Assembly (NCBI GenBank): GCA_016186395.1
Contig: JACPLU010000002.1
Location: forward strand, 11,470-75,469
Reading direction: 5' to 3'
Length of the DNA: 64,000 nucleotides
Origin: Parcubacteria group bacterium
GTDB lineage: Bacteria > Patescibacteriota > Minisyncoccia > 2-02-FULL-40-12
Shown here: positions 16,628 through 46,759 of the stretch, in pieces
How positions within the stretch are numbered: position 1 is the first letter of the stretch
How the letters are laid out: each line of letters opens with the position of its first letter
The notes under the pieces: generated by a model
What the model saw: the letters and a program-made list of their open reading frames with translations, nothing else
What the model was told of the DNA's origin: nothing
The model's database searches: none
Made by a program: the position numbers and the translations under genes

Positions 16628-16926
16628 CTCGTTAGAGGTAGCCCGCCCAAGGTCCTTCGGATCGCGCGTAGCGCGCAGCAGACGAGCCCCGTTAGAGATA
16701 AGAAATTTAGATTTCTAGCTGATTCGAGATTGTGAATCGGATCTCAAACGGGGCGAGACCTCCAACGGGATCCATATATCTATTTTAGAGACAATGGTAA
16801 AACTTGCAATAAACATTATCCACCTCAAACTCAAGAGTCCTTTACAGCAGGGCCAATAGAGAACATTGGAAAACTTTGTTCAATGAAATCTATGGGTATT
16901 TTATTAGAAATCCAGACTTTTAACTT

Positions 16927-17748
16927 TTAATGCTCTCTAGAAATATCTTCGTAATAAAACGGGTCAATCCAGACATAACTTCCATCATCTTTTTTAATAA
17001 AATTGTCTGTTTTTATTGCCATTTTTAATCTGTTCGCTAAATCAATCCTTATATTCTTCCATAGTTCATCTTTCTCGATCTGTTTCTTCTTTATGTATCC
17101 CACCAATAATTCGACGAGTTTTGATGCCTTTGCTAGTACTTCTTCTTGCGAAGGTTCCGTTCCGTTTTCAAATTTAATACAAGAAACCTGTCCTGATGCA
17201 AATAAAAATGTTGGCATTTTTATGCCTAGTTTATTTAATTCTTCCCTTAAATCAGCTTCAATAGACTGTGCCTGAAGCATCTCATTAATATAGGGCTGAG
17301 AAACATCACCGAAATGTCTCATTTTGGGAACTTCCGTTTTTAAGATATACTTTTCTTCTCCTATCTCTAAGACATAAACCTTAGATTGTCCACCTCTTGT
17401 TAAAGCCTTTAGTTTGGCACCGCTGGACAAGTCAACCCATTCTTTAGGTTTCATGGTACCTTCTTGAAAAGTATTCTCTATTTCGATAAGACCCCTTTCG
17501 ATCTCTTTCAATAATCCTGGGTAAGATTTAATTAGCCTCTCACCAAATGGAGAAAGCAACAACGATGCTTTTATCGCATCGTAATCTCTATCAAAATAAG
17601 ATAAGTCAGGAGACCTAAAAAGACGATTACCAAATCTGTCTCTGCCGTTTTTCTCTTCTTTAAAATGTTTTACGGTTGCCGTTTTGTCTTCTCTTAATTT
17701 TTGTTCCGCATACCTTTCTGGCAGCGGCGTTTCAAATCTTGGTGGCAT
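16927..17748 (-). CDS. Hypothetical protein with protein-kinase-like ATP-binding signature
   Basis: RGGQSKVYVLEIGEEKYILKTE resembles glycine-loop plus VAIK lysine; later DLANRLKMAIKTDNF...WIDPF resembles catalytic/DFG-like segments; weak. Confidence 0.25.
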   Translation of the reverse strand: MPPRFETPLPERYAEQKLREDKTATVKHFKEEKNGRDRFGNRLFRSPDLSYFDRDYDAIKASLLLSPFGERLIKSYPGLLKEIERGLIEIENTFQEGTMKPKEWVDLSSGAKLKALTRGGQSKVYVLEIGEEKYILKTEVPKMRHFGDVSQPYINEMLQAQSIEADLREELNKLGIKMPTFLFASGQVSCIKFENGTEPSQEEVLAKASKLVELLVGYIKKKQIEKDELWKNIRIDLANRLKMAIKTDNFIKKDDGSYVWIDPFYYEDISREH

Positions 17749-18164
17749 ATGGTTAATTTAAAAAAATGGCAGGGGTTAAGGGATGCGTTCAGAACTATAA
17801 ATTGGGCTATTATTAAGCGTGATTTACAGCCAATCGCATCCTTTGGGTTTAATTAACCAAGTATAACAAATTCAGAAGGCCTATCCAGATTGGCTTTCTG
17901 AATAGGCCATTGTGGCCACTAGGTCGTGACCAGCTCTTGAAGGCCACAGTGCGAACAATCCATCTCCTCTCTTGTGCCCCGAATGGGCTTATATCTCGCC
18001 CCTTGATGGTTGCACTTCGCCTGAAGAACACCCAGAAGCCTCGAACCTTCAGCTTCGTTTAGTATCCCAGAGGCAACCATAGACCCGATGGCTCTCCTGA
18101 TCGAGCGTATCTCGCTTCTACTGAGTTGTTTCATCCTAAAGACCTCGGAGTAGATATAGCATAC

Positions 18165-18950
18165 TTACTGGCCTTCTACCAAATTCCTGAGATGACTAAT
18201 GTCTTGCTGGCAAATCTTGCAATCACAGCCTGTTTTCTCTATATCTATTCGTCCGCCTAGCTTATTCAATATATGGTCAATCATTTTCGTCCAATGGGTA
18301 AATTTGTCATCCATATTTTTGGCCGACAGAATTTTGGTCAAAATATCCCTGAGCTTAGGATCCCACTTCTTTAAGTCTGACAGCGTCTTCTTGTTACTGG
18401 TGTGCCAGCGACCGACTATCTCATAATACATATCAAGAATATCTCGCAGTCCCGTATGCATCACGTGATTAGCAGCAACAGGATCAGTATGTAAATGCCT
18501 TTTCACCTTTAAATCTTCATTTAGAATAACAAACCTGACCCAGTCGTGTTTGGATTTAGAATATTTTTTAGGAAGCCTTCTCTTTTTTGCGTCGGCAATA
18601 AGGTCTTTTAGTTTTCCATCTTTATCAAACAAGACTATGGACTCGGAAACAATAGGTATTCTCTTTGCTCGCTCGAGTTCCTTTTCAGTATCTTCTCTTA
18701 ATCTTTCTATAGAGTTAAAGCTTATATCAAGTTTGATCCCGTCAATTCTTATATGGTTAAGCTCAGAATGGTCTTTTCCACCAACAACAACCTTTACGTC
18801 TATGTCACTACCCTTAACAAACTCTCCTCTCACGGATGAACCAAAAATAAGGCAAGCTCTATACCTTTCGTCATCTTTAAGCTTTTTTAGAATACTAAAA
18901 ACTTTAGCAACACGACGATTAAGTTCTTTGTTGTTGGAGTATATGGACAT
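18165..18950 (-). CDS. Nucleotidyltransferase (Pol-beta superfamily, MNT-like) domain protein
   Basis: LIFGSSVRGEFVKGSDIDVKVVV = GSxxRGE...SDIDV NTase motif; last gene of a 6-gene minus-strand block. Confidence 0.55.
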   Translation of the reverse strand: MSIYSNNKELNRRVAKVFSILKKLKDDERYRACLIFGSSVRGEFVKGSDIDVKVVVGGKDHSELNHIRIDGIKLDISFNSIERLREDTEKELERAKRIPIVSESIVLFDKDGKLKDLIADAKKRRLPKKYSKSKHDWVRFVILNEDLKVKRHLHTDPVAANHVMHTGLRDILDMYYEIVGRWHTSNKKTLSDLKKWDPKLRDILTKILSAKNMDDKFTHWTKMIDHILNKLGGRIDIEKTGCDCKICQQDISHLRNLVEGQ

Positions 18951-18966
18951 AAAAGAGTTTTGACAC

Positions 18967-19482
18967 TCATTGCTTATTAAGTAAGTCGCTATAGGACTTT
19001 GATATTAAATCAGATTGAGAGACATTGAAAAGTTTCAGATATTGATTGCACTGTTCTAATAACTTTTCTTTGCCGATTTTACCCGTTTTATCTATTGCCT
19101 CAATTTCAATAAAACTTCCCAAGCCCCTGACTTGATCTATATGAAACTTAACATTTTTTATAAAGTAAATTTCTCTCTTCTTGTCTACTATCTTGAAGAC
19201 CCCAAGAGCCTTAATTAGGATGTTCTCCAAAAGACTTTTTGAAGTTGTTTTATATAGAATAACATCGGATTGCTTAGGACCTTTTTTATCCTGTCTCTGA
19301 TAGTAAATCAGATAGTTTTCTATATTGCCTTTCCTCAATTTTAGTCTACCATTAGCCACCTTGAAATAAGTATCTATTTGATGATCTGTGCCAATAAAGC
19401 GAGATCCTTTTTCTTTAAGGATTTTCCTTATTTTGTTCGGATCCTTTGATCTTGCCTTTATCTCAATATTAATATGGCTCAT
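18967..19482 (-). CDS. CYTH-domain protein (class IV adenylyl cyclase / triphosphate-tunnel metalloenzyme family)
   Basis: N-terminal NIEIKARSKD (EIEIK/ExExK CYTH signature); 171 aa, typical CYTH size. Confidence 0.5.
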   Translation of the reverse strand: MSHINIEIKARSKDPNKIRKILKEKGSRFIGTDHQIDTYFKVANGRLKLRKGNIENYLIYYQRQDKKGPKQSDVILYKTTSKSLLENILIKALGVFKIVDKKREIYFIKNVKFHIDQVRGLGSFIEIEAIDKTGKIGKEKLLEQCNQYLKLFNVSQSDLISKSYSDLLNKQ

Positions 19483-20178
19483 TTAATTTAAGACCTTATA
19501 CTCAAGCAATAAGTAGGAATTTTCTAATGGCTTAGCTTGGACCAATTCCAAAGCTTTAACCTTAAATAAATCCTCGGGGCTGTGAAGCGACTCGCCATCC
19601 ATTAAAGAGGCTGTATCCTTGCCCCCTACCATTGCAGGAGCAACAACGAGAAGCAATCTATCAATGAGACCCTCTCTGACCCAAGAGGCGTTCATTGTGC
19701 CACCCGTCTGGATAGTAATCCGATCTACGCCATAATCCTCTTTGAACCTTCTTAATACATCAGCCAAATCAATCTTGTCGTCGTATTTGAGTATCTCAAT
19801 GTTTGGAAACTCTTTCTTGAGTTCAAAAGCTGGATGTTCAGAGTTGGTAGTAATTATATAAAGCGTCTTACTCTTTTTAGCCATATAGGCCGTACCGTTT
19901 TTGTTGAGATGGGGCTTACTGTCAATGATGATAAAATTGACTGGAGTTTTTGTTGGTTCATCAGTCTTCTCATTAATGCCGATCTTCTCAAAAACTCGGC
20001 CAGAGTTTAGAGAGTGTAAATCCGTTTGTTGTTCAAGATCGTAGTATTGCTTATTGCCTTCCTTAACTCCATCAATCTTTTTGTAATCGGTATCCGTATC
20101 CATAATATCTGTATCGCCAGTAGAAATCTTGCCGTCAACGGATATTAAGAGGAAAAGTGTTGTATATGGTCTATTCAT
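19483..20178 (-). CDS. RibD C-terminal-domain / dihydrofolate-reductase-like reductase family protein
   Basis: N-term LFLLISVDGKIST and C-term LIDRLLLVVAPAMVGGKDTASL match the RibD_C pattern (SLDGKIA ... hhhPhhhGgG). Confidence 0.45.
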   Translation of the reverse strand: MNRPYTTLFLLISVDGKISTGDTDIMDTDTDYKKIDGVKEGNKQYYDLEQQTDLHSLNSGRVFEKIGINEKTDEPTKTPVNFIIIDSKPHLNKNGTAYMAKKSKTLYIITTNSEHPAFELKKEFPNIEILKYDDKIDLADVLRRFKEDYGVDRITIQTGGTMNASWVREGLIDRLLLVVAPAMVGGKDTASLMDGESLHSPEDLFKVKALELVQAKPLENSYLLLEYKVLN

Positions 20179-21256
20179 ATAAAGATTTAGTCTTTTTACA
20201 AAGTTTCGGATCTTCTAGCACGTCAGAACTGTCAATAAACTGGTCTACTGAACCTATGTTTGGTAACTTTTTAAGTTCCTCCTCGGTAATGGTTTTTCTG
20301 ATAGCATCAGCAAACCCGTCGGCGTGAATAACTAGATAAGGTCGCTCGTGGTATGAAGAAACTTCAGTAGTCATTGGTTTGGTTATGCCAAGCTCATTGT
20401 GGGCTTGAGCAATTATCTTATAGGCTTCGGCCAGATATTTCTCTCGTTCTTTCCAAGAAGAAGCAAGTAGGGTTTTGGATAAGCTAGGTTCCAGCTTAGA
20501 AGCAATGTTTAGCTTGCTAAAAGCAGTTCCAAACCATTTAGTGTAGGGATAATACTTCTGGTCCATCAGAAAGCATAGTTTCATTAATTCACGCACTATC
20601 CGAGAAGCGACTACCTGAGACCCGAGTTCATCGCCTACGTCGCCTGTGCGGCCTACAAAGGCCTCTTCTTGCGATATTCTGGTCCACTGGGCAGCTAGCA
20701 GGTAAAGCCATACTTCTTTCGGGTAGAAATTGAATTTATTCCTAATCGTTTCTAGCTCGCTGAGACCATCGTGATAGACAGCACCACTCGTTAAGGCCAG
20801 TAATCTTTGCTGAGGGAAAGTAAGCCAATCAAGATTAGTTATTTCTTGATATGGATCGAACTTAATTCGCATCTGCCATAAGGATTTTATCGTAAATATA
20901 TCAACCATATGATCTACTGGTCCCGAAGTTATGGTCTTGGATATTCTCACTCCATTTTCTTGAGACTTAGAGAAATTAGTTGAGTAGCCCATAAATTCAT
21001 ACGGGAGTTTCTCGGATAAAGTTTTGCTGATCTTTTCTTTGAGTTCAGGAAAGTCAGCTTCGGACAAGAAAATCAAAACACGAGGACCCCAATGATGATC
21101 CCGAGATATTTCAGTGTCATATCCAAGGACTTCCGAGCCCCAACCTATAAGGGCAGCCGAGTATTTTAAGTTAGGAAACTCACTATCTAGAATAGGTTTA
21201 ACAACTTCTTGATAATAGCTCCTGCTTAGTTCAATTCCTGATAAAAATTCAGCCAT
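20171..21256 (-). CDS. Hypothetical protein (possible nucleotidyltransferase-fold N-terminus)
   Basis: AALIGWGSEVLGYDTEISRDHHWGPRVLIF loosely resembles hG[GS]x9-13D NTase core; 8-nt overlap with downstream RibD_C-like gene. Confidence 0.25.
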   Translation of the reverse strand: MAEFLSGIELSRSYYQEVVKPILDSEFPNLKYSAALIGWGSEVLGYDTEISRDHHWGPRVLIFLSEADFPELKEKISKTLSEKLPYEFMGYSTNFSKSQENGVRISKTITSGPVDHMVDIFTIKSLWQMRIKFDPYQEITNLDWLTFPQQRLLALTSGAVYHDGLSELETIRNKFNFYPKEVWLYLLAAQWTRISQEEAFVGRTGDVGDELGSQVVASRIVRELMKLCFLMDQKYYPYTKWFGTAFSKLNIASKLEPSLSKTLLASSWKEREKYLAEAYKIIAQAHNELGITKPMTTEVSSYHERPYLVIHADGFADAIRKTITEEELKKLPNIGSVDQFIDSSDVLEDPKLCKKTKSLYE

Positions 21257-21286
21257 TTCTCTAGTTTATCATATTAGTAATGTATC

Positions 21287-21931
21287 CTATAGTTCTTTGA
21301 TAAATTTTATTGGGATAGCACTAAAACCAATCACATCCCTAGAACTTCTCTCATCACTGGCCCCTCGTGCGATTACCCCGACGGCTTCATCCTTGCTATT
21401 TAATAAGACTCCGCCGCTCATACCAACATAAAGTGGTCGGTCTATGACGATATGAGGCCTAAGACCAATGTCGGTATACGAGGAAACATTACCATAATAC
21501 TGCTGAGGCTCATCGCTAGGAAAGTACTGGGTAAACCCAACTGCAAGAACTTTTTCCCGAACTAAAATATCTTGTCTTGCCATTTTAATAGTAGGAAAAT
21601 ATTTATCGTCCGTCCCTTCAAGCTTCAATATCGCAAGATCTAACAAACTGATTTTCGACACTACGATAGCATTATATTTTTCAGAGCTTCCCGTCATTTT
21701 GTAGGCCACTATTTTCTCATTTAAATCAAAGACGTGAGCACAGGTAACCAGACCTATACCATCTAACATAAAAGCGGTGCCGTTAGATATACCATTGCTT
21801 TCTATCATCCAAATCGACTCGTTTATTATCTTATAATCATCGAGGGGTAGAAACGGATAGCCATTTCTGCTCAACTGATTAAACTTATTTATCAAATTTC
21901 TATATACTCTGCTTTTCTGTCCCTTAACCAT
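21287..21931 (-). CDS. Trypsin-like (S1/chymotrypsin fold) serine protease; candidate retron effector
   Basis: Triad candidates TCAHV (His), LLDLAILKL (Asp), GMSGGVLL (GxSGG Ser); overlaps the RT stop by 8 nt. Confidence 0.6.
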   Translation of the reverse strand: MVKGQKSRVYRNLINKFNQLSRNGYPFLPLDDYKIINESIWMIESNGISNGTAFMLDGIGLVTCAHVFDLNEKIVAYKMTGSSEKYNAIVVSKISLLDLAILKLEGTDDKYFPTIKMARQDILVREKVLAVGFTQYFPSDEPQQYYGNVSSYTDIGLRPHIVIDRPLYVGMSGGVLLNSKDEAVGVIARGASDERSSRDVIGFSAIPIKFIKEL

Positions 21932-22892
21932 CCTTTACAAAGTTTATTTTCCCTTCGATTATTTTAGAAAATTCAACAGATTTAATATGAGGGGCTCTTT
22001 CTTTTAATCTATTTTTAAAATAAGCCTCCTCCGCGACCCTTAAATCATATTTACGCCATTTATCTAATAGAACTCTTATTTCTCTTATGTACTCTCTTTT
22101 TATATTTGGCGTTCTATTGGTTACCAACCCCGTCACCTCCTGTCTCCTTCCAGTTCTTAATATTCGAGTTTTAGCATCATTAATAATAAATCCATTAGAG
22201 GCGATGATAGACAATATGCCTTTCCCGCATAATGGAGCACTGCCAGACTCAACTATTTCCTTATGGAAAAATGCCTGTCTTGTGGAGATAGTAATATCAT
22301 CCGCATAGCGTGTATAAACGGCATTGTACTTTTTGACTAATGCTTGAAATGCTCCGTCCATTCTAGAACATATTAGGTTTGAAATAATCGGTGAAGTGGG
22401 AGCTCCTTGAGGTAGTTGGTTATTATGGCAGCATAAGTTGGCCAGTGCTGTAGCAACTGGAGCAGGCAGGCTAAACGGTGGTTTCAAAAATAAGCCTCTA
22501 ACTCTTCCAAAATTAATTGATGGAAAGAAATCTTTTAGATCAAGGTTGAATACTATCTTTTTGCCTGAGTGGGCCGAAGCGTTAGATACAATGTTTCTAT
22601 TATTTACAAATCCTTGAACCGATGGTCTGGGCTCATAACAAATAGAGAGAATGTAATTCAACTTTCTCTGCAAAATCTTTAAAGTTGAAGTTGGAGCTAG
22701 GATGCGTCGTTCGCCTCCTGATTTTTTCTTAATAACAAACTCTTTGTAGTTTGTAGGCTTATTTTTCCTATAAACCAAATAAATAAGTGTTTTGCAATCT
22801 ATCTCTAAAATATCAGCCACATCGATAAGTGTTTTTAGATTGCGAAACTTTTCTTTAAGGACTTCGGGAGAATTTAATAAGTCTGGTCGCAT
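21924..22892 (-). CDS. Retron-type reverse transcriptase
   Basis: NASAH (NAxxH), LNLDLKDFFPSI (nearly identical to the Ec86 RT motif), YADDITIS (YADD), EVTGLVTN (retron VTG motif); 322 aa. Confidence 0.85.
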   Translation of the reverse strand: MRPDLLNSPEVLKEKFRNLKTLIDVADILEIDCKTLIYLVYRKNKPTNYKEFVIKKKSGGERRILAPTSTLKILQRKLNYILSICYEPRPSVQGFVNNRNIVSNASAHSGKKIVFNLDLKDFFPSINFGRVRGLFLKPPFSLPAPVATALANLCCHNNQLPQGAPTSPIISNLICSRMDGAFQALVKKYNAVYTRYADDITISTRQAFFHKEIVESGSAPLCGKGILSIIASNGFIINDAKTRILRTGRRQEVTGLVTNRTPNIKREYIREIRVLLDKWRKYDLRVAEEAYFKNRLKERAPHIKSVEFSKIIEGKINFVKDG

Positions 22893-22904
22893 TTCTATGC
22901 AATT

Positions 22905-23048
22905 AAAAAAGGGTGCGATTTAAATTCTCTTTCTGCAAGCACGGTAATGTCTATATCCATAACATTACGCACATAAAGCAAGTAAAAGGAACCGTTTCTC
23001 ATCCGTCGCGAAACACAACGGCAATCAATTGTTATCACACCCTTTTTT
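22905..23048 (-). ncRNA. Candidate retron msr/msd non-coding RNA flanked by a1/a2 inverted repeats
   Basis: aaaaaagggtg (22905-22915) and caccctttttt (23038-23048) are an 11-bp inverted pair bracketing ~140 nt with internal hairpins (gtaatgt...acattac; ccgttg...cgacgg), immediately upstream of the RT ATG at 22892. Confidence 0.45.
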
Positions 23049-23139
23049 AAAAGAATAACGATCTTCTGGATCGTTGTTAGCCCAGTTGAATTATAGTGAA
23101 ATGTAAAGTATTGTAAAGCGTGTAACCCTAAATAGTTTT

Positions 23140-24420
23140 ATGTTTGATATTACAGAATTACCAGACAAATACACATTTAATCAAGAAAGTTTGTCCGAAG
23201 AGAAGTACATTGATGACAACTCCCTGTTTGTTTATTTTTGTATATCACGTGGACTTTTTAATAATCCCAAAGACTCCCAGATAAGCTTTATTTATTTTAA
23301 TCCCTTTGAGTGGACTAGTGTTGATTTTATAGCTTTTCTGCTCTCAGTTTGTAGTGACTACGGTTTGAATATTACGAACATAAAAACAATGGTTCCTGCC
23401 ATAGAAGATGAGTATGAGGTATCTCACAAGCCGAGGCGTTATAAGGGTGCATATAAATGGATCCTAGACTTAAGAAGAAATGAGCCCGAAAGAGAAGAAG
23501 TTAAACTTTTTGATAAGCTCTCTAGCGACACGGCTTCTATAGCCGACTTAGAACGAGCATTGATATACGCAAGTAGAATAGCCCCATTATACAAAGATGA
23601 GAAAAGCCAATTATATCTTTCTAAAGATTTGTTTAGGAACTTACTTTCTTATACAAGTTTCTGTATTGAGCCAAGTTCCACATCTAAAAATAAATTAAAG
23701 GCAAACCTAGATACCTATCTAGAAGAGTTCATGCAGGAAAAGCTTACCAGAGATAGCAAATCAAAAACGATTGGCAATACCTCCGTATCTCAATCTAAAA
23801 ACATCTTTACCTTCAAAAAACATCGTCAATTATTTGGAGAGTACCTACAGAGAATGCAAAATGATTTTGGAAACACAATGACCATTGAAAATATATTTGA
23901 AGAAAGATTTCCAAACCTTAGATACCCCGACTCAGAGACAATTAGAAAAAGATACTCTGAAAGAAACTTTTATTTTATACACATTCTACTTACGTTTCAC
24001 AAACAAGGTTTATTAAAGATTTTATCTCTTGGTAGTAATTGGGACTATCACGAAGATGAAATGTATACGTATCAGGCAAAGATCGAAATCCTACCAGCTT
24101 TTCTTAATGAAAATGTCTCAAATAAACTGCACTTTGATCTAGATAAATCTAGGCTATATGTGCAAGGGAAAGAGTTTAAGTTACTAAAGTTTAAAGACGA
24201 ATACCACACTCTTAGAGTTATGTTTGAGGATGTTAACGAGCTAGGCAAGGAATGGTTTTTTTCTGAAATTGCAGAAAGAATTGATGAGAACAGATTAGAC
24301 GATAAAAAGTACTATAACGCTATTTATCAGATAAGATTAAAGCTTGAGAAGCAAGGAATAAACGACTTCTTTATTACGACCAAACAGTCGGTCAAAATAA
24401 ACAAAAAATACCTGTCTTAG
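23140..24420 (+). CDS. Hypothetical protein (island cargo)
   Basis: 426-aa ORF with AT-rich codon usage; no recognisable motif. Confidence 0.3.
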   Translation: MFDITELPDKYTFNQESLSEEKYIDDNSLFVYFCISRGLFNNPKDSQISFIYFNPFEWTSVDFIAFLLSVCSDYGLNITNIKTMVPAIEDEYEVSHKPRRYKGAYKWILDLRRNEPEREEVKLFDKLSSDTASIADLERALIYASRIAPLYKDEKSQLYLSKDLFRNLLSYTSFCIEPSSTSKNKLKANLDTYLEEFMQEKLTRDSKSKTIGNTSVSQSKNIFTFKKHRQLFGEYLQRMQNDFGNTMTIENIFEERFPNLRYPDSETIRKRYSERNFYFIHILLTFHKQGLLKILSLGSNWDYHEDEMYTYQAKIEILPAFLNENVSNKLHFDLDKSRLYVQGKEFKLLKFKDEYHTLRVMFEDVNELGKEWFFSEIAERIDENRLDDKKYYNAIYQIRLKLEKQGINDFFITTKQSVKINKKYLS

Positions 24421-24616
24421 ATTTGTCTTAAGTTAACTCAAGACGACATAACGATAACCTGAACCCATCAGGCTATTTTTATGTCCAAGCAGAAAAAGAA
24501 ACAACCCGAGCAACCGATTACGCTTCAAGAGACTGAGGCAGAATTTGATGACCAAAACCTGCTGGCCTTCTTTAGGTTGCTTCTGCAAGTAGATAAACGA
24601 CTCAACCCTAAAACTT

Positions 24617-25732
24617 ATGAGGTTAGAACTAATGATTGACACCATCATCCTCAAATTTCCGCTTGGTAAATTCTATATCGAACAGATAGAAAAATTCGGT
24701 ACCACAAAGTCTGAAGTCGCTTATGGAAAAGATTTTTATAAGAAATTCTATAACAATCCAGACGATAGCTCTTTAATGGAAAAGGGATACCAACCTCGCC
24801 TCACCCTTTATAGGCGAGGCAGAACCATAGAACTGAAAGTTGAGTTCTCAGCTCCTAAAATGCTCTTTAGTAATAACCTAAACGAGCTTGAGGAGAGTGA
24901 CCTTAACCTGCTTGTGGGCAAGCTTAAACAGCAGATAGAAGCACGAGGCGTTCGGATAAGCATCGATGACATTCTGAACGCCGAAGTATCAGCTTTCCAC
25001 GCTTCTAAAAACATCAGGCTCACTAAGGGATATACCTCAATCGCAGTTATCCGAGAGCTTTCAAAGATAAACCTCACACAGAAATTGGATATGGATCACA
25101 AGGACTTTCGTAATGGCGGTCACTCGCTCCAATATTACGCCAAGTCGCACGCATTGGTTTTATACGATAAGATCCGAGACCTCAAGAAGCCAGACAAACG
25201 AGCGATCGATAAAGAAAACAAAATTAACCAGCTCAGCCTCTTTGAGTATCTGGCAAACAAAAGTATGCCCGAGATTATCAGAATTGAAGTCCGACTATCT
25301 CAAAAGCAAAAGATGAACTCGGTCCTTAAGAAATTAGGTATCCCCGAGCATCCCAAGCTCAAAGATATTTTCAAAAAAGATGTATGCCAAAAAATTGTAA
25401 CTCATTATTGGGAAGAAATGATTTTGAGCGGCAACACTTTCCTGTTCCAGCCGCTTAATAACCCGCAAAGGATAATCCAACGCATCATTAAAAACAATAA
25501 AAAGATTAAGCCGAAAGAAGTTGTCTATCTGGCTGGGCTATATCTGATTGTTAAAGACTTAGGAATTAGAGAGCTCAGAACCATTCTGTCCCAGTTATCG
25601 TCTCAACGGTCTTGGTATCGGATTGCTGACGACTTTAAGAAGTTAAAGCTAGCTCGTTATCAATACGAATGGGTCAAAGAGATCAAGGACGCAATAAAAA
25701 AGTTTGAGTCAATTAGGATAAATGGTCCTTGA
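24617..25732 (+). CDS. Hypothetical protein, possibly a Rep_trans-like replication initiator of the integrated element
   Basis: Internal start MIDTIILKFPLG resembles the N-terminus of phage/plasmid replication initiation factors; weak. A 52-aa ORF (24481-24639) overlaps upstream. Confidence 0.25.
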   Translation: MRLELMIDTIILKFPLGKFYIEQIEKFGTTKSEVAYGKDFYKKFYNNPDDSSLMEKGYQPRLTLYRRGRTIELKVEFSAPKMLFSNNLNELEESDLNLLVGKLKQQIEARGVRISIDDILNAEVSAFHASKNIRLTKGYTSIAVIRELSKINLTQKLDMDHKDFRNGGHSLQYYAKSHALVLYDKIRDLKKPDKRAIDKENKINQLSLFEYLANKSMPEIIRIEVRLSQKQKMNSVLKKLGIPEHPKLKDIFKKDVCQKIVTHYWEEMILSGNTFLFQPLNNPQRIIQRIIKNNKKIKPKEVVYLAGLYLIVKDLGIRELRTILSQLSSQRSWYRIADDFKKLKLARYQYEWVKEIKDAIKKFESIRINGP

Positions 25733-25771
25733 GTCTAGCCATTAGGGCTTTATTAATTATTAATTAAACTT

Positions 25772-26035
25772 ATGGAAAACATCATTATAAACTTACAAAT
25801 TGGCGAAGAAGAGATACAATCATTTGCGGAAGCAAACTTTGGCCGTGAGCTCACTGAAATTGAGCTATATCGCTTAAAAGAATATTGGTATGAATGCGAG
25901 GATGCAGATTGGTCAAAGACAGAATTTATGGCTAACTGTATTGAGGATGCGATGAATAACGAGGATAAAAGCTGGGAACACGTTGATAAAGAATTTCGGG
26001 AAAAACATAGTCAAGACCAGAAGTTACCCACTTGA
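25772..26035 (+). CDS. Small acidic hypothetical protein
   Basis: 87-aa ORF, Glu/Asp-rich. Confidence 0.25.
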   Translation: MENIIINLQIGEEEIQSFAEANFGRELTEIELYRLKEYWYECEDADWSKTEFMANCIEDAMNNEDKSWEHVDKEFREKHSQDQKLPT

Positions 26036-26077
26036 ACACTTGGAATTATGTGTAAACCATTGTAAACTATAATCATT

Positions 26078-26251
26078 ATGAACAAAGACTACTATACGCC
26101 ACAAGAATTAGCCGATAAGCTCCGAGTAAATGTTATGACTATCTATCGCTATATTAAAGCTCGCAAATTAACTGCCCATAAAATCGGCAAGGAATTTCGT
26201 ATTCCAAAATCCGAGTTCAACCGTTTTCTGGACAAAACAAAAACAAAGTAA
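26078..26251 (+). CDS. Excisionase-family helix-turn-helix DNA-binding protein (57 aa, below ORF-track cutoff)
   Basis: Manual translation MNKDYYTPQELADKLRVNVMTIYRYIKARKLTAHKIGKEFRIPKSEFNRFLDKTKTK matches the excisionase/MerR-type HTH (TIGR01764-like); its stop overlaps the next ATG (TAATG). Confidence 0.6.
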   Translation: MNKDYYTPQELADKLRVNVMTIYRYIKARKLTAHKIGKEFRIPKSEFNRFLDKTKTK

Positions 26252-26745
26252 TGCATACAATCTCTGAACTCAATAATAAATGGTGGTATAGGTTAATAAA
26301 AGTCGGCTACCTACTTTTGATTATGGCGGCTTGTGTAATATCTATTGCAGTTGCCTTCGAAGACGTGGGCACTTATCAGACAGATTATTTAGTAGTATGC
26401 AACTATGGGAATAAGAGTACTTTTATTGCTAATAAGGACAAGGATATTTGGAATATCCCACAGTATTATGACTATAGCGAAAGCTTGGCCAAACTTCCTG
26501 ACTCAACCAAAATACAATTGCAATCAGCTTGTGGCATATCCCAAGCAGAAATGAATGCCAAGTTTGAAAATCCTAATGATAATAAAAAGCTATTCGATTT
26601 AACCGAAACAAAAGTAAATACCACGAGCTATTGGAGTGCAATACTATGGTCTATTCTGTCCATAATTATTACCTTCGCAATCGCAGAGATAATTAGAAGG
26701 ATTTTTTACTACATTGTTTTAGGTAAAGTTAAACCTGTGAAATGA
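26251..26745 (+). CDS. Small membrane protein (2 TM), island cargo
   Basis: TM segments near both ends; translationally coupled between the excisionase-like gene and the recombinase. Confidence 0.3.
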   Translation: MHTISELNNKWWYRLIKVGYLLLIMAACVISIAVAFEDVGTYQTDYLVVCNYGNKSTFIANKDKDIWNIPQYYDYSESLAKLPDSTKIQLQSACGISQAEMNAKFENPNDNKKLFDLTETKVNTTSYWSAILWSILSIIITFAIAEIIRRIFYYIVLGKVKPVK

Positions 26746-28298
26746 AAGCAATAATTCTAGCCAGAGTTTCTAAGGAAGATCAGCTTGAAGGGCAATCAAT
26801 ACCTGCCCAGCTTGCTCGTTCTCGACAATGGTGTAAAGACAAGAAACTCGTTATCAAAAGCGAATACCAGTTTGACGAGTCCTCAACCAAAGATCAGAGA
26901 AAAAAGTTTGAGAAAGTGATTGACGAGATCCGACAATCTAAAGAACCTATTGCTCTCGTAGTAGAAACGATTGACCGACTTCAAAGAAGTTTTAAGGAGT
27001 CCGTTATGTTGGACGAGTTTAGGAAAAGCGGAAAGCTGGAAATCCATTTCCTGCGAGAAGGTCTTGTCGTTAGCGATAAATCAAATAGCTCAGAGCTATT
27101 GCGTTGGGATATGGGTGTGATGTTCGCAAGGAGCTATGTTTTACAGCTCAGTGATAATGTTAAGCGAAGCATTGAGGGCAGACTACGAAACGGCCAATGG
27201 ATTGGTCGGCCACGTATGGGTTACATCAACATAACCAAAGAGGACGGAACTCGGGATATTGTTCAAGACCCCGAGCGAGCTCATTTCATACGCAAAATCT
27301 TTGAGTATTACATCGCAGGAACTTCTTTGAACTTGCTATCCAAGAGAATGAAAAAGGAAGGGTTCAGGAGTCCTCAAAATAAGACTGTGACCGCAGGCGG
27401 TATCCATCGAATACTAATGGACTCATTCTATTACGGAATAATGGTTGTTAAGGGCAAAGAGTATCCGCACCGCTACACGCCGATTATCTCTCGTGATACT
27501 TTTCTTAAGGCTCAAGAAATCAGAACAGGCTGGAAGAAAACGCCATACAAACACAAAAGTAAACCCTACGCTCTAAAAGGGATTATTAAATGTGCTATTT
27601 GCGGTTGCACGGTTACGCCAGAGTTTAAGAAAGGCAAATACATTCTTTACGCCTGCACAAATTACAAGAAGGTCCACGAGAAGAAAACCTATATCCCCGA
27701 AGCAGACCTGCTTAAAGCCGTTTATAAGGCCTTGAAGCCGCTTGAGTTGCCTCAGAACAAGATAGACAAGCTCGTAGAGGACCTGCGGACATACAGCGAA
27801 GCTAAGACCATCTATCACGATGAGGCTATTCGGACACTAGATCGTAAGTATGCCGAGAGCCAAATCAGAATTGATAAACTTTTGGACTTACTGCTAGCCA
27901 GTAGTATTACTCAAGAGATGTATGACACGAAGTTTAAGAAAGAAAAAGAATTGCAGACTGATATTCTCATCCAAAAAGAAGATCACACCAACGCCGATAA
28001 AGAGTTTCACATCACTGCTTCTACTGTATTAAACCTAGCAAAACGAGCAACCGAGATAATTAAGAGTTCGGAACCAGAAGAAAAAAGGCAATTTATGAGC
28101 TATCTACTTCAGAACTGCCAATTAAATGGCAGAAACCTAGAGTTTACCTTACGAAATCCCTTCAACTTGATAGCTAAATACTCTAGCTATCCCACATTGC
28201 AGCCCCGACGGGATTTGAACCCGTGTTGCAGGAATGAAAATCCTGTGTCCTGGACCAGGCTAGACGACAGGGCCATAACTTTAAAAATTTTACCCTAA
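26742..28298 (+). CDS. Large serine recombinase (resolvase/invertase catalytic domain + recombinase domain + zinc ribbon)
   Basis: N-term MKAIILARVSKEDQLEGQSIPAQ (catalytic Ser in RVS); C-terminal CAICGC...YACTNYKK zinc ribbon; 518 aa; ORF reads through the opposite-strand tRNA-Glu. Confidence 0.8.
   Translation: MKAIILARVSKEDQLEGQSIPAQLARSRQWCKDKKLVIKSEYQFDESSTKDQRKKFEKVIDEIRQSKEPIALVVETIDRLQRSFKESVMLDEFRKSGKLEIHFLREGLVVSDKSNSSELLRWDMGVMFARSYVLQLSDNVKRSIEGRLRNGQWIGRPRMGYINITKEDGTRDIVQDPERAHFIRKIFEYYIAGTSLNLLSKRMKKEGFRSPQNKTVTAGGIHRILMDSFYYGIMVVKGKEYPHRYTPIISRDTFLKAQEIRTGWKKTPYKHKSKPYALKGIIKCAICGCTVTPEFKKGKYILYACTNYKKVHEKKTYIPEADLLKAVYKALKPLELPQNKIDKLVEDLRTYSEAKTIYHDEAIRTLDRKYAESQIRIDKLLDLLLASSITQEMYDTKFKKEKELQTDILIQKEDHTNADKEFHITASTVLNLAKRATEIIKSSEPEEKRQFMSYLLQNCQLNGRNLEFTLRNPFNLIAKYSSYPTLQPRRDLNPCCRNENPVSWTRLDDRAITLKILP
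28200..28274 (-). tRNA. tRNA-Glu (anticodon TTC)
   Basis: Reverse complement GGCCCTGTCGTCTAGCCTGGTCCAGGACACAGGATTTTCATTCCTGCAACACGGGTTCAAATCCCGTCGGGGCT closely parallels bacterial tRNA-Glu; anticodon loop TTTTCAT. Confidence 0.8.
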
Positions 28299-46659: not shown

Positions 46660-46759
46660 GGTTATAACTAAGACTCCTCCCGTTATAGGTCTGATTCACA
46701 GACTTGAATCAGCTAGAAATCAACAGATTTTTTACCTCTAACGGGACGAATCTTAAAAA

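What the first reader, a model, noticed from the sequence alone, without database searches (positions are those of the whole stretch)
17800..28298. tRNA-Glu-adjacent integrated element; serine-recombinase ORF reads through the tRNA gene
A large serine recombinase, coupled to an excisionase-type HTH and a small membrane protein, lies directly against the 3' end of tRNA-Glu (28200-28274, minus strand). Its reading frame runs through the tRNA on the opposite strand, and its last ~30 codons are antisense to the tRNA. The cargo includes the retron block and a Rep-like gene. At the presumed left edge (17880-18135) a ~250-bp GC-rich segment with different codon composition interrupts the AT-rich background. 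The pattern fits a tRNA-targeting integrative element that carries defense genes.
Basis: partly seen in the sequence, partly recalled or inferred. Interest (0 to 1): 0.6.

Follow-up and report, generated by a model that had tools for sequence, protein, structure and literature searches.

The report
Serine-integrase mobile element at tRNA-Glu
A 10.4-kb mobile element carrying a retron defence system sits at the 3' end of tRNA-Glu, and its serine integrase gene reads into the tRNA because the element's recombination site lies inside that gene, so integration swaps the enzyme's last 27 amino acids.

Summary
A 518-aa large serine recombinase (LSR, 26742-28298) reads antisense through tRNA-Glu (28200-28274).

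The interpretation also holds: this is an integrated element. Its edges are two 4-bp GCAG cores (17769-17772 and 28199-28202). Three close relatives, in other flanks and partly with other cargo, lose homology exactly at these cores. There is no tRNA-fragment repeat, as expected for an LSR.

The read-through has a cause. LSR homology ends at codon 487, on the core. In the circular form the frame would continue into the element's left end for 27 codons (GLRDAFRTINWAII...). The same tail motif (D-x-FRT-x-N/D-W) recurs across the family:
- on LSR genes of two circular 9-10-kb relatives;
- as an orphan fragment 5-11 kb upstream of integrated LSR genes.

In 48 of 80 related loci (CPR bacteria and Chlamydiae) a tRNA 3' end abuts the LSR gene.

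The backbone is a G2P-like replication protein, an HTH_17 protein and the LSR. The cargo is a type XI retron plus four other genes.

No empty site or circle was found for this copy. Contig breaks at both junctions in two of four samples hint at heterogeneity.

The tail's function is unknown. The closest analogues are Mx8 IntP/IntX and the phiRSM serine recombinase.

The parts
17769..17772 (.). attL crossover core GCAG (left junction, B-O-P')
   Evidence: In the window, L089 and L009, homology starts exactly here while the flanks to the left differ. A fourth attL, L099, shows the same. Logan contig L007 ends at 17772.
17773..17856 (+). P' arm and orphan 3' end of the LSR gene: 27 codons (GLRDAFRTINWAIIKRDLQPIASFGFN) plus a stop, in frame with LSR codon 487 once the element is circular
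   Evidence: 90-94% identical in L089, L009, L098 and L099, although the adjoining cargo differs. Tail HMM score 35.4 bits. Reconstructed circular-form ORF is 514 aa.
17870..17903 (.). 12-bp-stem hairpin between the orphan LSR tail and the cargo operon; possible bidirectional terminator (inferred)
   Evidence: Predicted in both strand folds. Not called by the terminator scan, because the loop is longer than 8 nt.
17919..18134 (-). 71-aa ORF in the GC-rich segment; cargo, and its status as a gene is uncertain
   Evidence: ORF list. No family hit. Not called as a gene on the Logan contigs. No significant RNA structure.
18165..18950 (-). Cargo: nucleotidyltransferase (Polbeta/NTP_transf_2)
   Evidence: weak PADLOC PDC-S09 hits.
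18967..19482 (-). Cargo: CYTH-domain protein
19483..20178 (-). Cargo: RibD_C-domain protein
20171..21256 (-). Cargo: DUF4037 protein
21287..21931 (-). Cargo: retron type XI effector, trypsin-like protease (a separate ORF here)
   Evidence: Pfam Trypsin_2. PADLOC RT-Protease_XI, profile positions 299-496, E 6e-39.
21924..22892 (-). Cargo: retron reverse transcriptase
   Evidence: RVT_1. PADLOC RT-Protease_XI, profile positions 2-301, E 2e-119. An 80%-identical copy is present in L009.
22893..23139 (-). Candidate retron ncRNA (msr-msd) upstream of the RT, closed by a long inverted repeat
   Evidence: Inverted repeat I1, 22896-22926 / 23027-23057. Fold z-score -2.84.
23140..24420 (+). Backbone: 426-aa protein of unknown function (no Walker A motif)
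   Evidence: No family hit. Homologues in 9 related loci, and 422 aa in L089.
24481..24639 (+). Backbone: 52-aa ORF just upstream of Rep
   Evidence: Called on the Logan contigs. tblastn hits in 19 related loci and in circle L100.
24617..25732 (+). Backbone: G2P-like putative rolling-circle replication initiator, 371 aa
   Evidence: No direct Pfam hit. 5 of 36 family members hit PF05144. AF2 pLDDT 86, pTM 0.88. BFVD matches at E 2e-10 to 2e-5, one of them named inovirus G2P. Present in 35 of 80 LSR loci and in both circles.
25772..26035 (+). Backbone: 87-aa protein of unknown function
26078..26251 (+). Backbone: HTH_17 (MerR/excisionase-type) protein, candidate directionality factor or regulator
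   Evidence: PF12728, E 1e-14. PHROG 66 excisionase. Present in 35 of 80 loci and in both circles.
26251..26745 (+). 164-aa two-TM protein, overlapping the start of the LSR gene; not conserved in the family
   Evidence: No hits in 80 loci. L089 has a 128-aa gene at this position.
26742..28298 (+). Large serine recombinase as encoded in the integrated state: 487 element-encoded codons plus 31 host-derived codons (28203-28295)
   Evidence: Pfam. Homologue coverage stops at about residue 487. AF2 model of relative P0027 matches the SPbeta, Bxb1, LI and phiC31 integrases.
28199..28202 (.). attR crossover core GCAG (P-O-B'), equal to tRNA-Glu nucleotides 71-74 on the other strand and to LSR codon 487 (CAG)
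   Evidence: Alignment A3. Logan contigs L003 and L004 both start at 28199, and L107 ends at 28228, an exact 30-nt overlap with L003.
28200..28274 (-). tRNA-Glu(ttc), the chromosomal target; its 3' half forms the B' arm of attB

Best explanation
Window 17773-28202 is an integrated, plasmid-like mobile element of about 10.43 kb.

Shown:
- It is bounded by two GCAG cores.
- It carries a conserved backbone (426-aa protein, small ORF, G2P-like Rep, HTH_17 protein, large serine recombinase) and exchangeable cargo (type XI retron, DUF4037, RibD_C, CYTH, nucleotidyltransferase).
- It lies at the last nucleotides (71-74) of tRNA-Glu, with the recombinase gene pointing outwards into the tRNA.
- The recombinase gene spans attP. 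The P arm is its last conserved codons. The crossover core is codon 487. The P' arm, at the far left end of the integrated element, encodes a further 27 conserved codons.

Inferred:
- The circular element expresses a 514-aa integrase. This enzyme pairs attP with an attB made of the tRNA-Glu acceptor/T-arm plus a poorly conserved downstream half-site, and exchanges strands at a dinucleotide inside GCAG, probably AG, which is the symmetry centre of attP.
- Integration leaves the tRNA intact through its discriminator base.
- Integration also cuts the integrase gene, so the resident copy makes a protein whose tail is antisense-tRNA sequence.
- Excision would be carried out by this tail-less enzyme, probably with the HTH_17 protein as directionality factor.
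- The G2P-like Rep would then replicate the circle.

The conserved tail probably matters only for the episomal, integrating form of the enzyme. What it does is not known.
For: Boundaries. blastn and alignments of the window against L089 (Yanofskybacteria) and L009 show homology beginning exactly at GCAG on the left and ending at GCAG plus tRNA-Glu on the right. The flanks differ, and in L089 the cargo differs too. A fourth attL is L099.

Gene spans attP.
- Homologues align only to about residue 487.
- Joining 28202 to 17773 gives a 514-aa ORF.
- JGI contig L098 holds a contiguous P-O-P' junction of a 90%-identical relative, with the frame open through the tail.
- In the close set (window, L089, L090, L009, L098, L099) most tail substitutions are synonymous: 9 of 14 by my reading of the printed sequences.

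Family level.
- 48 of 80 genome loci have an opposite-strand tRNA (Asn, His, Gln, Tyr, Asp, Trp, Glu) within 50 nt of the position aligned to residue 487; 41 of them lie within 6 nt.
- 40 of 120 database homologues carry antisense-T-arm tails such as DSNP or GSNLRP.
- A 19-aa tail HMM finds same-strand fragments of 16-38 bits upstream of the LSR gene. In loci that also have a tRNA these lie 5-11 kb upstream and are preceded by a core shared with the tRNA junction.
- The conserved codons D, F, T and N/D vary almost only at the third position, and conserved I and L residues lie 40-55 nt from the core.

Circular relatives. L101 has a 141-bp terminal overlap (a 9,734-bp circle), and the same sequence was assembled independently as L102. 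Joining the ends of L100 closes a 710-aa ORF. Both carry Rep, HTH_17 and an LSR with the full tail, and no tRNA.

Enzyme. Pfam domains. The catalytic R8-V9-S10 motif is conserved. The fold of relative P0027 matches solved serine integrases.

This copy. Contigs from two samples run through both junctions. In two other samples the contigs break at 17772/17774 and at 28199, with a k-1 overlap at the tRNA end.
Against: - No empty attB and no circular junction of this particular element was found. The metagenome scan for the predicted attB returned nothing. The viral-contig scan for the left-end sequence also returned nothing.
- The distant homologues of the left-flank gene that were checked show no shared synteny.
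- The contig breaks could come from another strain's tRNA-Glu context, and L008 ends at 17774, not at the 17772 expected for an empty site.
- The only P-O-P' junction close to this element (L098) belongs to a 5'-truncated remnant.
- The tail fragments were found with a protein HMM, which biases frame-0 conservation.
- The invariant DNA motif TTYAGAAC shows that part of the tail's conservation is at the DNA level, as an integrase-binding site.
- The crossover dinucleotide, the RDF role of the HTH_17 protein and the Rep activity are all inferred.
Confidence: 0.85

Rival explanations
1. The enzyme functionally ends at about residue 487. The sequence past the core is conserved only because it is the P' binding site of attP, and the open frame across it, like the frame through the tRNA, has no protein-level meaning.
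For: The first 12 tail codons are nearly invariant at the DNA level among close relatives. The Arg codon of FRT is always AGA or CGA, and TTYAGAAC is invariant. This block lies 15-35 nt from the core, where the zinc-ribbon domain of solved LSRs contacts attP (established knowledge for the LI integrase; that family is matched). Integrated copies lacking the tail remain intact. The tail in the AF2 model has only moderate confidence, pLDDT 60-74.
Against: Third-position wobble occurs inside otherwise invariant codons (GAY, TTY, ACN, RAY). Conserved I and L residues lie 40-55 nt from the core, beyond a usual half-site. Synonymous changes outnumber non-synonymous ones among close relatives. The frame stays open for 27-41 codons in every attP-intact member seen, including AT-rich ones. 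The tail peptide is recognisable from CPR bacteria to Chlamydiae.
Confidence: 0.2
2. The element is a fixed island that no longer moves: a fossil of a past integration whose recombinase is kept for another reason or has simply not yet decayed.
For: No empty site or circle was found for this copy. Two samples assemble straight through both junctions. Remnants and tandem relics are common in the family: L098, the 790-bp segment of L089, and multiple P' copies in L016, L034, L047, L054, L065 and L079.
Against: All backbone genes, both att arms and the orphan tail are intact, and the close relatives share them at 76-94% identity. Contigs break at both junctions in the same two samples. Circular relatives exist. 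The same backbone occurs in different flanks, in L089 with different cargo.
Confidence: 0.2
3. It is an integrated filamentous (inovirus-like) prophage of the phiRSM kind, not a plasmid-like element.
For: It has a G2P-like Rep fold, small membrane proteins and a size of 9-10 kb. It combines a serine recombinase with the tRNA 3' end in reverse orientation, as in phiRSM (PMC3816273).
Against: No pI/Zot morphogenesis ATPase or any virion protein hit appears in Pfam, PHROGs or NCBIfam. The 426-aa protein has no Walker A motif (read directly from the sequence). Most of the element is defence or metabolic cargo on the opposite strand. The viral-contig scan found nothing.
Confidence: 0.07
4. The recombinase-tRNA juxtaposition is an assembly chimera.
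For: The window probably derives from a metagenome-assembled genome (an identical protein is named from an NCBI Parcubacteria MAG), and tRNA genes are typical points of misjoining.
Against: Independent Logan assemblies of two samples reproduce both junctions base for base. The same arrangement recurs in 48 of 80 loci from unrelated assemblies.
Confidence: 0.02

Closest known systems
Myxococcus phage Mx8 integrase IntP/IntX
   Same: attP lies inside the 3' end of the integrase gene. Integration therefore creates a recombinant gene with a new C-terminus, and the altered enzyme stays active with changed properties (PMC6070905; cited in PMC4383910). From my own knowledge, not read here: its attB sites are at tRNA-Asp genes.
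   Different: Mx8 Int is a tyrosine recombinase of a tailed phage, with a long core shared with the target. Here the enzyme is a large serine recombinase with a 4-12-bp core, on a small non-viral element.
phiRSM1/phiRSM3 Int/attP unit (Ralstonia filamentous phages)
   Same: A serine recombinase integrates a small element that replicates as a circle into the 3' end of a tRNA gene in reverse orientation. The core starts with TGG (antisense CCA) plus acceptor-stem bases, and attP lies right after the recombinase gene (PMC3816273). Cores in this family look alike, for example TGGCTCC and TGGGGTG.
   Different: phiRSM uses a small resolvase/invertase-type recombinase, attP lies between genes, and the element is a true inovirus. 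Here the recombinase is large (Recombinase domain, zinc ribbon, coiled coil), attP is inside the gene, and no virion genes were found.
SSV1-type archaeal integrases ('suicidal' integrases)
   Same: The recombination site lies within the integrase ORF, so integration splits the gene (PMC7253208 abstract; PMC4383910).
   Different: They are tyrosine recombinases and the split removes a large part of the enzyme. Here only the last 27 of 514 codons are detached, and all known domains stay together.
Model phage large serine integrases (Bxb1, phiC31, LI/A118, SPbeta)
   Same: The domain set and fold are the same. The crossover core is short, and attP has imperfect inverted symmetry around it (read from the sequence).
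   Different: As far as I know, these have attP outside the integrase gene and target protein-coding or intergenic sites. No C-terminal exchange on integration has been described for them; that rests on my own knowledge and on searches that found none.
Mycobacteriophage integration-dependent immunity; phiRSS0 ORF13
   Same: attP lies inside a gene, so integration changes that protein's C-terminus and thereby its behaviour. phiRSS0 ORF13 loses 26 aa (PMC3816273). The mycobacteriophage case is from my own knowledge.
   Different: The gene that is cut is a repressor or regulator, not the recombinase itself.
Tycheposons with large serine recombinases (Prochlorococcus)
   Same: Small cargo-carrying integrative elements with replication genes. 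A minority, 27 of 937, encode a large serine recombinase (bioRxiv 10.1101/2020.12.28.424599).
   Different: Relatedness was not tested, and the text I read says nothing about attP lying inside the recombinase gene.

Membership tests
Large serine recombinase (serine integrase) | N-terminal resolvase catalytic domain with the nucleophilic serine | tested here: met
   PF00239 at residues 3-153. R8-V9-S10 is invariant or nearly so in 34- and 53-sequence alignments.
Large serine recombinase (serine integrase) | Recombinase domain followed by a zinc-ribbon domain with an inserted coiled coil | tested here: met
   PF07508 at 177-262 and PF13408 at 278-332. In the AF2 model of relative P0027, long helices span 338-442. 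Foldseek matches the SPbeta, Bxb1, LI and phiC31 integrases at E 1e-18 to 1e-12.
Large serine recombinase (serine integrase) | Short crossover core with attP/attB hybrids at the element ends and no long direct repeat | tested here: met
   A 4-bp GCAG sits at both junctions, and no longer repeat exists. Family cores are 4-12 bp.
Large serine recombinase (serine integrase) | Catalyses attP x attB integration | not testable with these tools
   Needs an in vivo or in vitro recombination assay.
Classical tDNA genomic island (Islander definition) | Tyrosine integrase, with the island flanked by the tDNA and a displaced tDNA fragment | tested here: not met
   The integrase is of the serine family. 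No displaced tRNA fragment was found with up to 3 mismatches. The definition is from PMC4383910.
Integrases whose gene extends across attP (Mx8/SSV type) | The ORF is continuous across attP in the free form and split by integration | tested here: met
   Reconstructed 514-aa ORF. Contiguous junction in L098. Circles L100 and L101 carry full-tail LSRs. Orphan tail fragments lie upstream of integrated copies.
Retron type XI (RT-protease) | Retron-clade RT with a trypsin-like protease, normally fused into one gene | tested here: met
   Both halves match the RT-Protease_XI profile, positions 2-301 and 299-496. Here they are two ORFs overlapping by 8 nt.
Retron type XI (RT-protease) | Structured ncRNA (msr-msd) next to the RT | tested here: inconclusive
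   An inverted repeat closes 22896-23057 and the fold z-score is -2.84. There was no covariation test, and no Rfam hit at gathering threshold.
G2P / Rep_trans rolling-circle replication initiators | Sequence or fold membership | tested here: inconclusive
   The window protein has no Pfam hit. 5 of 36 relatives hit PF05144 (best E 2e-6) and 1 hits Rep_trans. BFVD matches reach TM about 0.5, one of them a named inovirus G2P. Nothing was found in the PDB. Catalytic residues and the origin of replication were not identified.
Inovirus (filamentous prophage) | pI/Zot-like morphogenesis ATPase (the marker used in PMC6813254) | tested here: not met
   No such hit in Pfam, PHROGs or NCBIfam for any element ORF.
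Excisionase / recombination directionality factor | Small DNA-binding protein encoded next to the integrase that switches it to excision | not testable with these tools
   The HTH_17 domain and a PHROG excisionase hit are present, and the protein is linked to the LSR in 35 of 80 loci. The function itself is unproven.

The most novel reading that the evidence does not exclude
This is a widespread and, as far as I could find, undescribed clade of large serine integrases in CPR bacteria and Chlamydiae. It is specialised for the 3' ends of tRNA genes, and its members' own genes are cut by integration. The conserved about-27-aa C-terminal tail (D-x-FRT-x-N/D-W-x-x-I) would be made only from the circular element. 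It would act as a built-in state sensor: it is needed for, or regulates, attP x attB integration or the stability of the enzyme, while the tail-less resident enzyme is confined to excision or kept inactive. That would be a directionality control for serine integrases that does not rely on the RDF alone.
Probability: 0.35. Interest if true: 0.8.

Novelty: new variant of a known kind. Interest (0 to 1): 0.62.

Why it matters
Serine integrases are important genome-engineering tools, and their one-way behaviour is thought to rest on the coiled coil and a separate directionality factor. A natural family in which integration rewrites the enzyme's own C-terminus offers a simple, testable extra layer of control.

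The family also provides integrases whose targets are tRNA 3' ends, which are nearly universal and highly conserved sequences. A 2015 reference on genomic islands stated that serine integrases were not known to target tRNA genes (PMC4383910), although phiRSM is an earlier exception with a small serine recombinase (PMC3816273).

For CPR/Patescibacteria biology, the result defines a common class of 5-11-kb integrative, probably rolling-circle-replicating elements. These shuttle defence systems (a retron here, a methyltransferase plus helicase-nuclease pair in the circular relatives) between genomes that otherwise have few known mobile elements.

For annotation, it explains a recurrent artefact: recombinase ORFs with DSNP- or GSNLRP-type tails that overlap tRNA genes.

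Tried and rejected
- A direct repeat of the tRNA-Glu 3' segment (25-mer, up to 3 mismatches) and a general repeat search over 10-32 kb found nothing relevant. I set this aside as a criterion because serine integrases need no long repeat.
- An exact scan of JGI metagenome contigs for the predicted empty attB gave 0 hits. A viral-contig scan for the left end also gave 0 hits.
- I looked for an empty site through synteny. Homologues of the left-flank 273-aa gene are at most 50% identical, and in the two neighbourhoods checked they are not next to tRNA-Glu/TsaD.
- The GC-rich segment 17855-18165 was tested as a structured RNA. There was no Rfam hit at E<=1 and the z-scores were -0.7 and -1.7, so this idea was rejected.
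- Rep identity: sequence searches against Pfam, PHROGs, NCBIfam, PADLOC and PDB sequences, and Foldseek against the PDB, gave nothing for the window protein. Only family-level Pfam hits and BFVD fold matches support it.
- The predicted empty site would give tRNA-Glu an encoded CCA. The other four tRNAs of the window encode no CCA, so I do not count this as evidence.
- The comparison of conservation across reading frames is biased, because the tails were selected with a protein HMM. I used it only as a weak indication.
- Literature searches for a serine integrase spanning attP, or for this family in Patescibacteria, found nothing specific.

Full report
OBSERVATION. ARAGORN and Rfam both place tRNA-Glu(ttc) on the minus strand at 28199/28200-28274. 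The ORF 26742-28298 on the plus strand encodes a 518-aa protein with Resolvase, Recombinase and Zn_ribbon_recom domains. It runs through the whole tRNA on the opposite strand and stops 24 nt beyond it. An HTH_17 ORF (26078-26251) and a two-TM 164-aa ORF (26251-26745) are coupled to it. Further left lie a 371-aa gene, a 426-aa gene and, on the other strand, a retron RT, a trypsin-like protease, DUF4037, RibD_C, CYTH and a nucleotidyltransferase. PADLOC assigns the RT and protease to retron type XI, which is normally a single fused gene. The GC-rich stretch at about 17.8-18.2 kb is real.

BOUNDARIES. No repeat of the tRNA 3' segment exists anywhere in the window. The ends were fixed by comparison instead.
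- The closest recombinase relatives are P0003 (91% identity, Yanofskybacteria GCA_001794335.1, loci L089/L090) and the one in L009 (90%).
- Both sit in elements with the same backbone order. L089 has entirely different cargo: DUF3800, a phosphatase, a nitrilase-family protein and an acetyltransferase.
- blastn shows only three shared blocks: the backbone, the recombinase, and a 91-bp piece matching window 17762-17852 at 90-93%.
- On the left, similarity begins exactly at GCAG (window 17769-17772), with three unrelated flanks. On the right, it runs through the recombinase gene to GCAG (28199-28202) and then into each genome's own tRNA-Glu.
- A fourth left junction with yet another flank is L099.

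The element is therefore 17773-28202 (10,430 bp, counting one core). On the tRNA strand the core is CTGC, that is nucleotides 71-74: the last two acceptor-stem bases, the discriminator and the next base. The GC-rich segment lies about 100 bp inside the element. It contains an unconfirmed 71-aa ORF preceded by a strong hairpin, and it shows no sign of being a structured RNA.

WHY THE ORF READS INTO THE tRNA. Of the 120 listed database homologues, nearly all align to the query only as far as about residue 487, yet their lengths range from 473 to 529 aa. Codon 487 (CAG) is the last three bases of the core. Joining 28202 to 17773, as in the excised circle, continues the frame for 27 codons (GLRDAFRTINWAIIKRDLQPIASFGFN, then a stop), which gives a 514-aa protein. 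The 84-bp left end is more conserved between the three elements (90-93%) than the recombinase gene itself (82%). In the wider close set (window, L089, L090, L009, L098, L099), 9 of the 14 substitutions I count in this segment are synonymous (sequences). A JGI contig, L098, contains exactly this junction in one piece. There the last 400 nt of a 90%-identical recombinase gene run straight into the left-end sequence with the frame open, although that copy is a 5'-truncated remnant.

THE SAME ARCHITECTURE ACROSS A LARGE FAMILY.
- A scan of one genome per species returned 80 loci, mostly CPR/Patescibacteria and Chlamydiae.
- In 48 of them a tRNA gene on the opposite strand has its 3' end within 50 nt of the position aligned to residue 487, and in 41 it lies within 6 nt. 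The tRNAs are Asn (18 loci), His (10), Gln (8), Tyr (7), Asp (2), Trp (2) and Glu (1).
- Forty of the 120 database homologues end in DSNP, DSNQRP or GSNLRP. These are the translation of an antisense T-arm, often preceded by W, which is the antisense of CCA. Most of the others stop within the acceptor stem.
- A minority carry instead a long tail with the motif (L/R)-D-x-F-R-T-x-(N/D)-W-x-x-I, which is the motif of the window's reconstructed tail.
- An HMM of this 19-aa tail, searched against six-frame translations, finds a fragment of 16-38 bits on the same strand as the recombinase gene in about 40 loci. The window scores 35.4 bits at 17773-17829.
- Where a tRNA is also present, the fragment lies upstream of the recombinase gene and is preceded by a 4-12-bp core identical to the tRNA junction, for example CTTGGCTCC, TTGGGGTG or GAATGGGGGCGG. 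The implied element sizes are 5.0-11.1 kb.
- Over 45 distinct tail DNAs, the conserved codons D (GAY), F (TTY), T (ACN) and N/D (RAY) vary almost only at the third position. Conserved I and L residues lie 40-55 nt from the core, beyond a normal attP half-site. The block TTYAGAAC, however, is invariant as DNA.

I read this as two overlapping constraints: an integrase-binding P' arm and a coding tail. One caveat applies. The fragments were found with a protein HMM, so the frame comparison is biased in favour of frame 0.

FREE CIRCULAR RELATIVES.
- Contig L101 (9,875 bp) has identical 141-bp ends, which is the signature of a circle of 9,734 bp. The same sequence was assembled independently by JGI as a 9,741-bp contig, L102.
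- Joining the ends of L100 (9,052 bp) closes a 710-aa ORF.
- Both carry homologues of the window's Rep (37-43% identity), HTH_17 protein (62-71%) and recombinase (51-53%). Both recombinases have the full tail. Neither contig has a tRNA. Both carry an N6/N4 methyltransferase plus a ResIII-like helicase as cargo.
- The attP of L100 contains ACTTGGCTCC, the core seen at the tRNA-Asn junctions of L023.

Taken together, the family supplies attP, attL and attR. An attB has not been seen.

WHAT KIND OF ELEMENT.
- The 371-aa protein has no direct family hit, but 5 of 36 relatives reach PF05144 (G2P N-terminal domain; best E 2e-6).
- Its confident model (pLDDT 86, pTM 0.88) matches viral predicted structures at E 2e-10 to 2e-5, one of them named inovirus G2P. 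It matches nothing in the PDB.
- Rep and the HTH_17 protein accompany the recombinase in 35 of the 80 loci, all in the block of loci (L009-L073) that precedes the Chlamydiae-labelled ones. The membrane protein does not recur.
- No virion or pI/Zot gene was detected.

I therefore call it an integrative, probably rolling-circle-replicating, plasmid-like element with exchangeable defence cargo. The recombinase model matches the SPbeta, Bxb1, LI and phiC31 integrases. Its tail is predicted as two short helices of moderate confidence.

IS THIS COPY STILL MOBILE? This is not shown. Four Logan samples contain this strain.
- In SRR12113420 and -24, contigs run through both junctions.
- In SRR12113422 and -30, the flank contigs stop at 17772 and 17774 and start at exactly 28199.
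- In -30, an element-internal contig ends at 28228, an exact 30-nt (k-1) overlap with the flank contig.

That pattern is what a second sequence entering the tRNA 3' end would produce in a de Bruijn graph. An end at 17772 is what an empty-site allele predicts. The end at 17774, and the possibility of another strain's tRNA-Glu context, leave this open. Searches for the predicted attB and for synteny-based empty sites failed.

MECHANISM.
- Shown: the anatomy of attL, attR and attP; the split gene; the intact tRNA.
- Inferred: the circle expresses the 514-aa integrase. attP has imperfect inverted symmetry (ATCCC...GGGAT) centred on the AG of GCAG. The conserved tRNA acceptor/T-arm provides one attB half-site. 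The other half-site is variable, since the three related elements have unrelated left flanks. Strand exchange within GCAG inserts the element and leaves the tRNA intact through the discriminator. The resident gene then encodes 487 native residues plus 31 host-derived ones. The tail-less enzyme, probably with the HTH_17 protein, would excise the element, and Rep would replicate the circle.
- Speculative (probability about 0.35): the tail is needed for integration or for stability, so that the state of the element sets the activity of its own integrase.

COMPARISON WITH KNOWN SYSTEMS.
- Integrase genes that extend across attP are known for tyrosine recombinases. In Mx8, integration gives int a new 3' end and alters its properties. 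In SSV-type integrases the gene is split (PMC6070905, PMC4383910, PMC7253208).
- A serine recombinase acting at a tRNA 3' end in reverse orientation is known from the Ralstonia inovirus phiRSM. That enzyme is a small resolvase-type recombinase, and its attP lies between genes (PMC3816273).
- The Islander paper stated that serine integrases were not known to target tRNA genes.
- Some tycheposons carry large serine recombinases.
- I found no description of a large serine integrase whose gene spans attP, nor of this CPR/Chlamydiae clade. The library is incomplete, so this absence is weak evidence.

VERDICT. The finding is correct, and it is more interesting than a routine island. It is best filed as a new variant of a known kind: a large-serine-integrase element that targets tRNA 3' ends and whose integrase gene is re-tailed by integration.

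Noticed in passing
window 21287-22892 (minus) and 22893-23139: The type XI retron, normally a single RT-protease fusion gene, is here two ORFs overlapping by 8 nt. A candidate ncRNA closed by a 31-nt inverted repeat lies just upstream (z -2.84). L009 carries an 80%-identical RT.
   Followed up: partly
L089 11461-12249 (also L090): In the Yanofskybacteria relative, a 790-bp segment separates the recombinase gene from tRNA-Glu. It holds a 230-aa ORF with no Pfam hit. It is flanked by two GCAG cores, and the first core is followed by a degenerate P'-like stretch. It looks like the remnant of a second, tandem element.
   Followed up: partly
L016, L034, L047, L054, L065, L079: Several loci contain two or three tail-coding (P') fragments, some of them downstream of the recombinase gene. 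This suggests tandem arrays or relics of repeated integration at the same tRNA.
   Followed up: no
L061, L066, L070, L072, L074 and other Chlamydiae loci: The recombinase tails translate T-arm-like antisense sequence (LDLNQRP, RELNSRP), yet ARAGORN reports no tRNA there. These may be tRNA fragments, tmRNA ends or unusual tRNAs.
   Followed up: no
80 genome loci L009-L088: The target tRNAs are restricted to Asn, His, Gln, Tyr, Asp, Trp and Glu. Four of these (Asn, His, Asp, Tyr) are the GUN-anticodon tRNAs. No explanation was found.
   Followed up: no
window 16847-16915 and 16688-16752: A 66-bp sequence recurs twice in the Yanofskybacteria contig L097 (92% and 84% identity), and three Logan contigs end within it (16851-16867). 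Window 16688-16752, part of a GC-rich stretch, has an inverted 80% copy at 46679-46745. Neither has an Rfam hit.
   Followed up: partly
window 17740-17772 joined to 28203-28290 (predicted empty site): The predicted attB would give tRNA-Glu an encoded CCA followed by a run of seven T. The integrated copy has CAA instead. The other four tRNAs of the window encode no CCA.
   Followed up: yes
L098 330-470: Directly after the remnant recombinase tail comes an antisense fragment of another tRNA's T-arm and acceptor stem (GCCCTCGACAGGAATTGAACCTGTG). ARAGORN does not call it.
   Followed up: no
window 19369-19390: Logan contigs from two samples start at 19369 (L001, L107), and another contig ends at 19390 (L006), inside the CYTH gene. 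This may be a further assembly branch point within the cargo.
   Followed up: no
L100 and L101/L102: The circular relatives carry an N6/N4 DNA methyltransferase plus a 704-aa ResIII-like helicase as cargo, and L102 also has a PemK toxin. Defence or addiction cargo therefore seems typical for this element family.
   Followed up: partly
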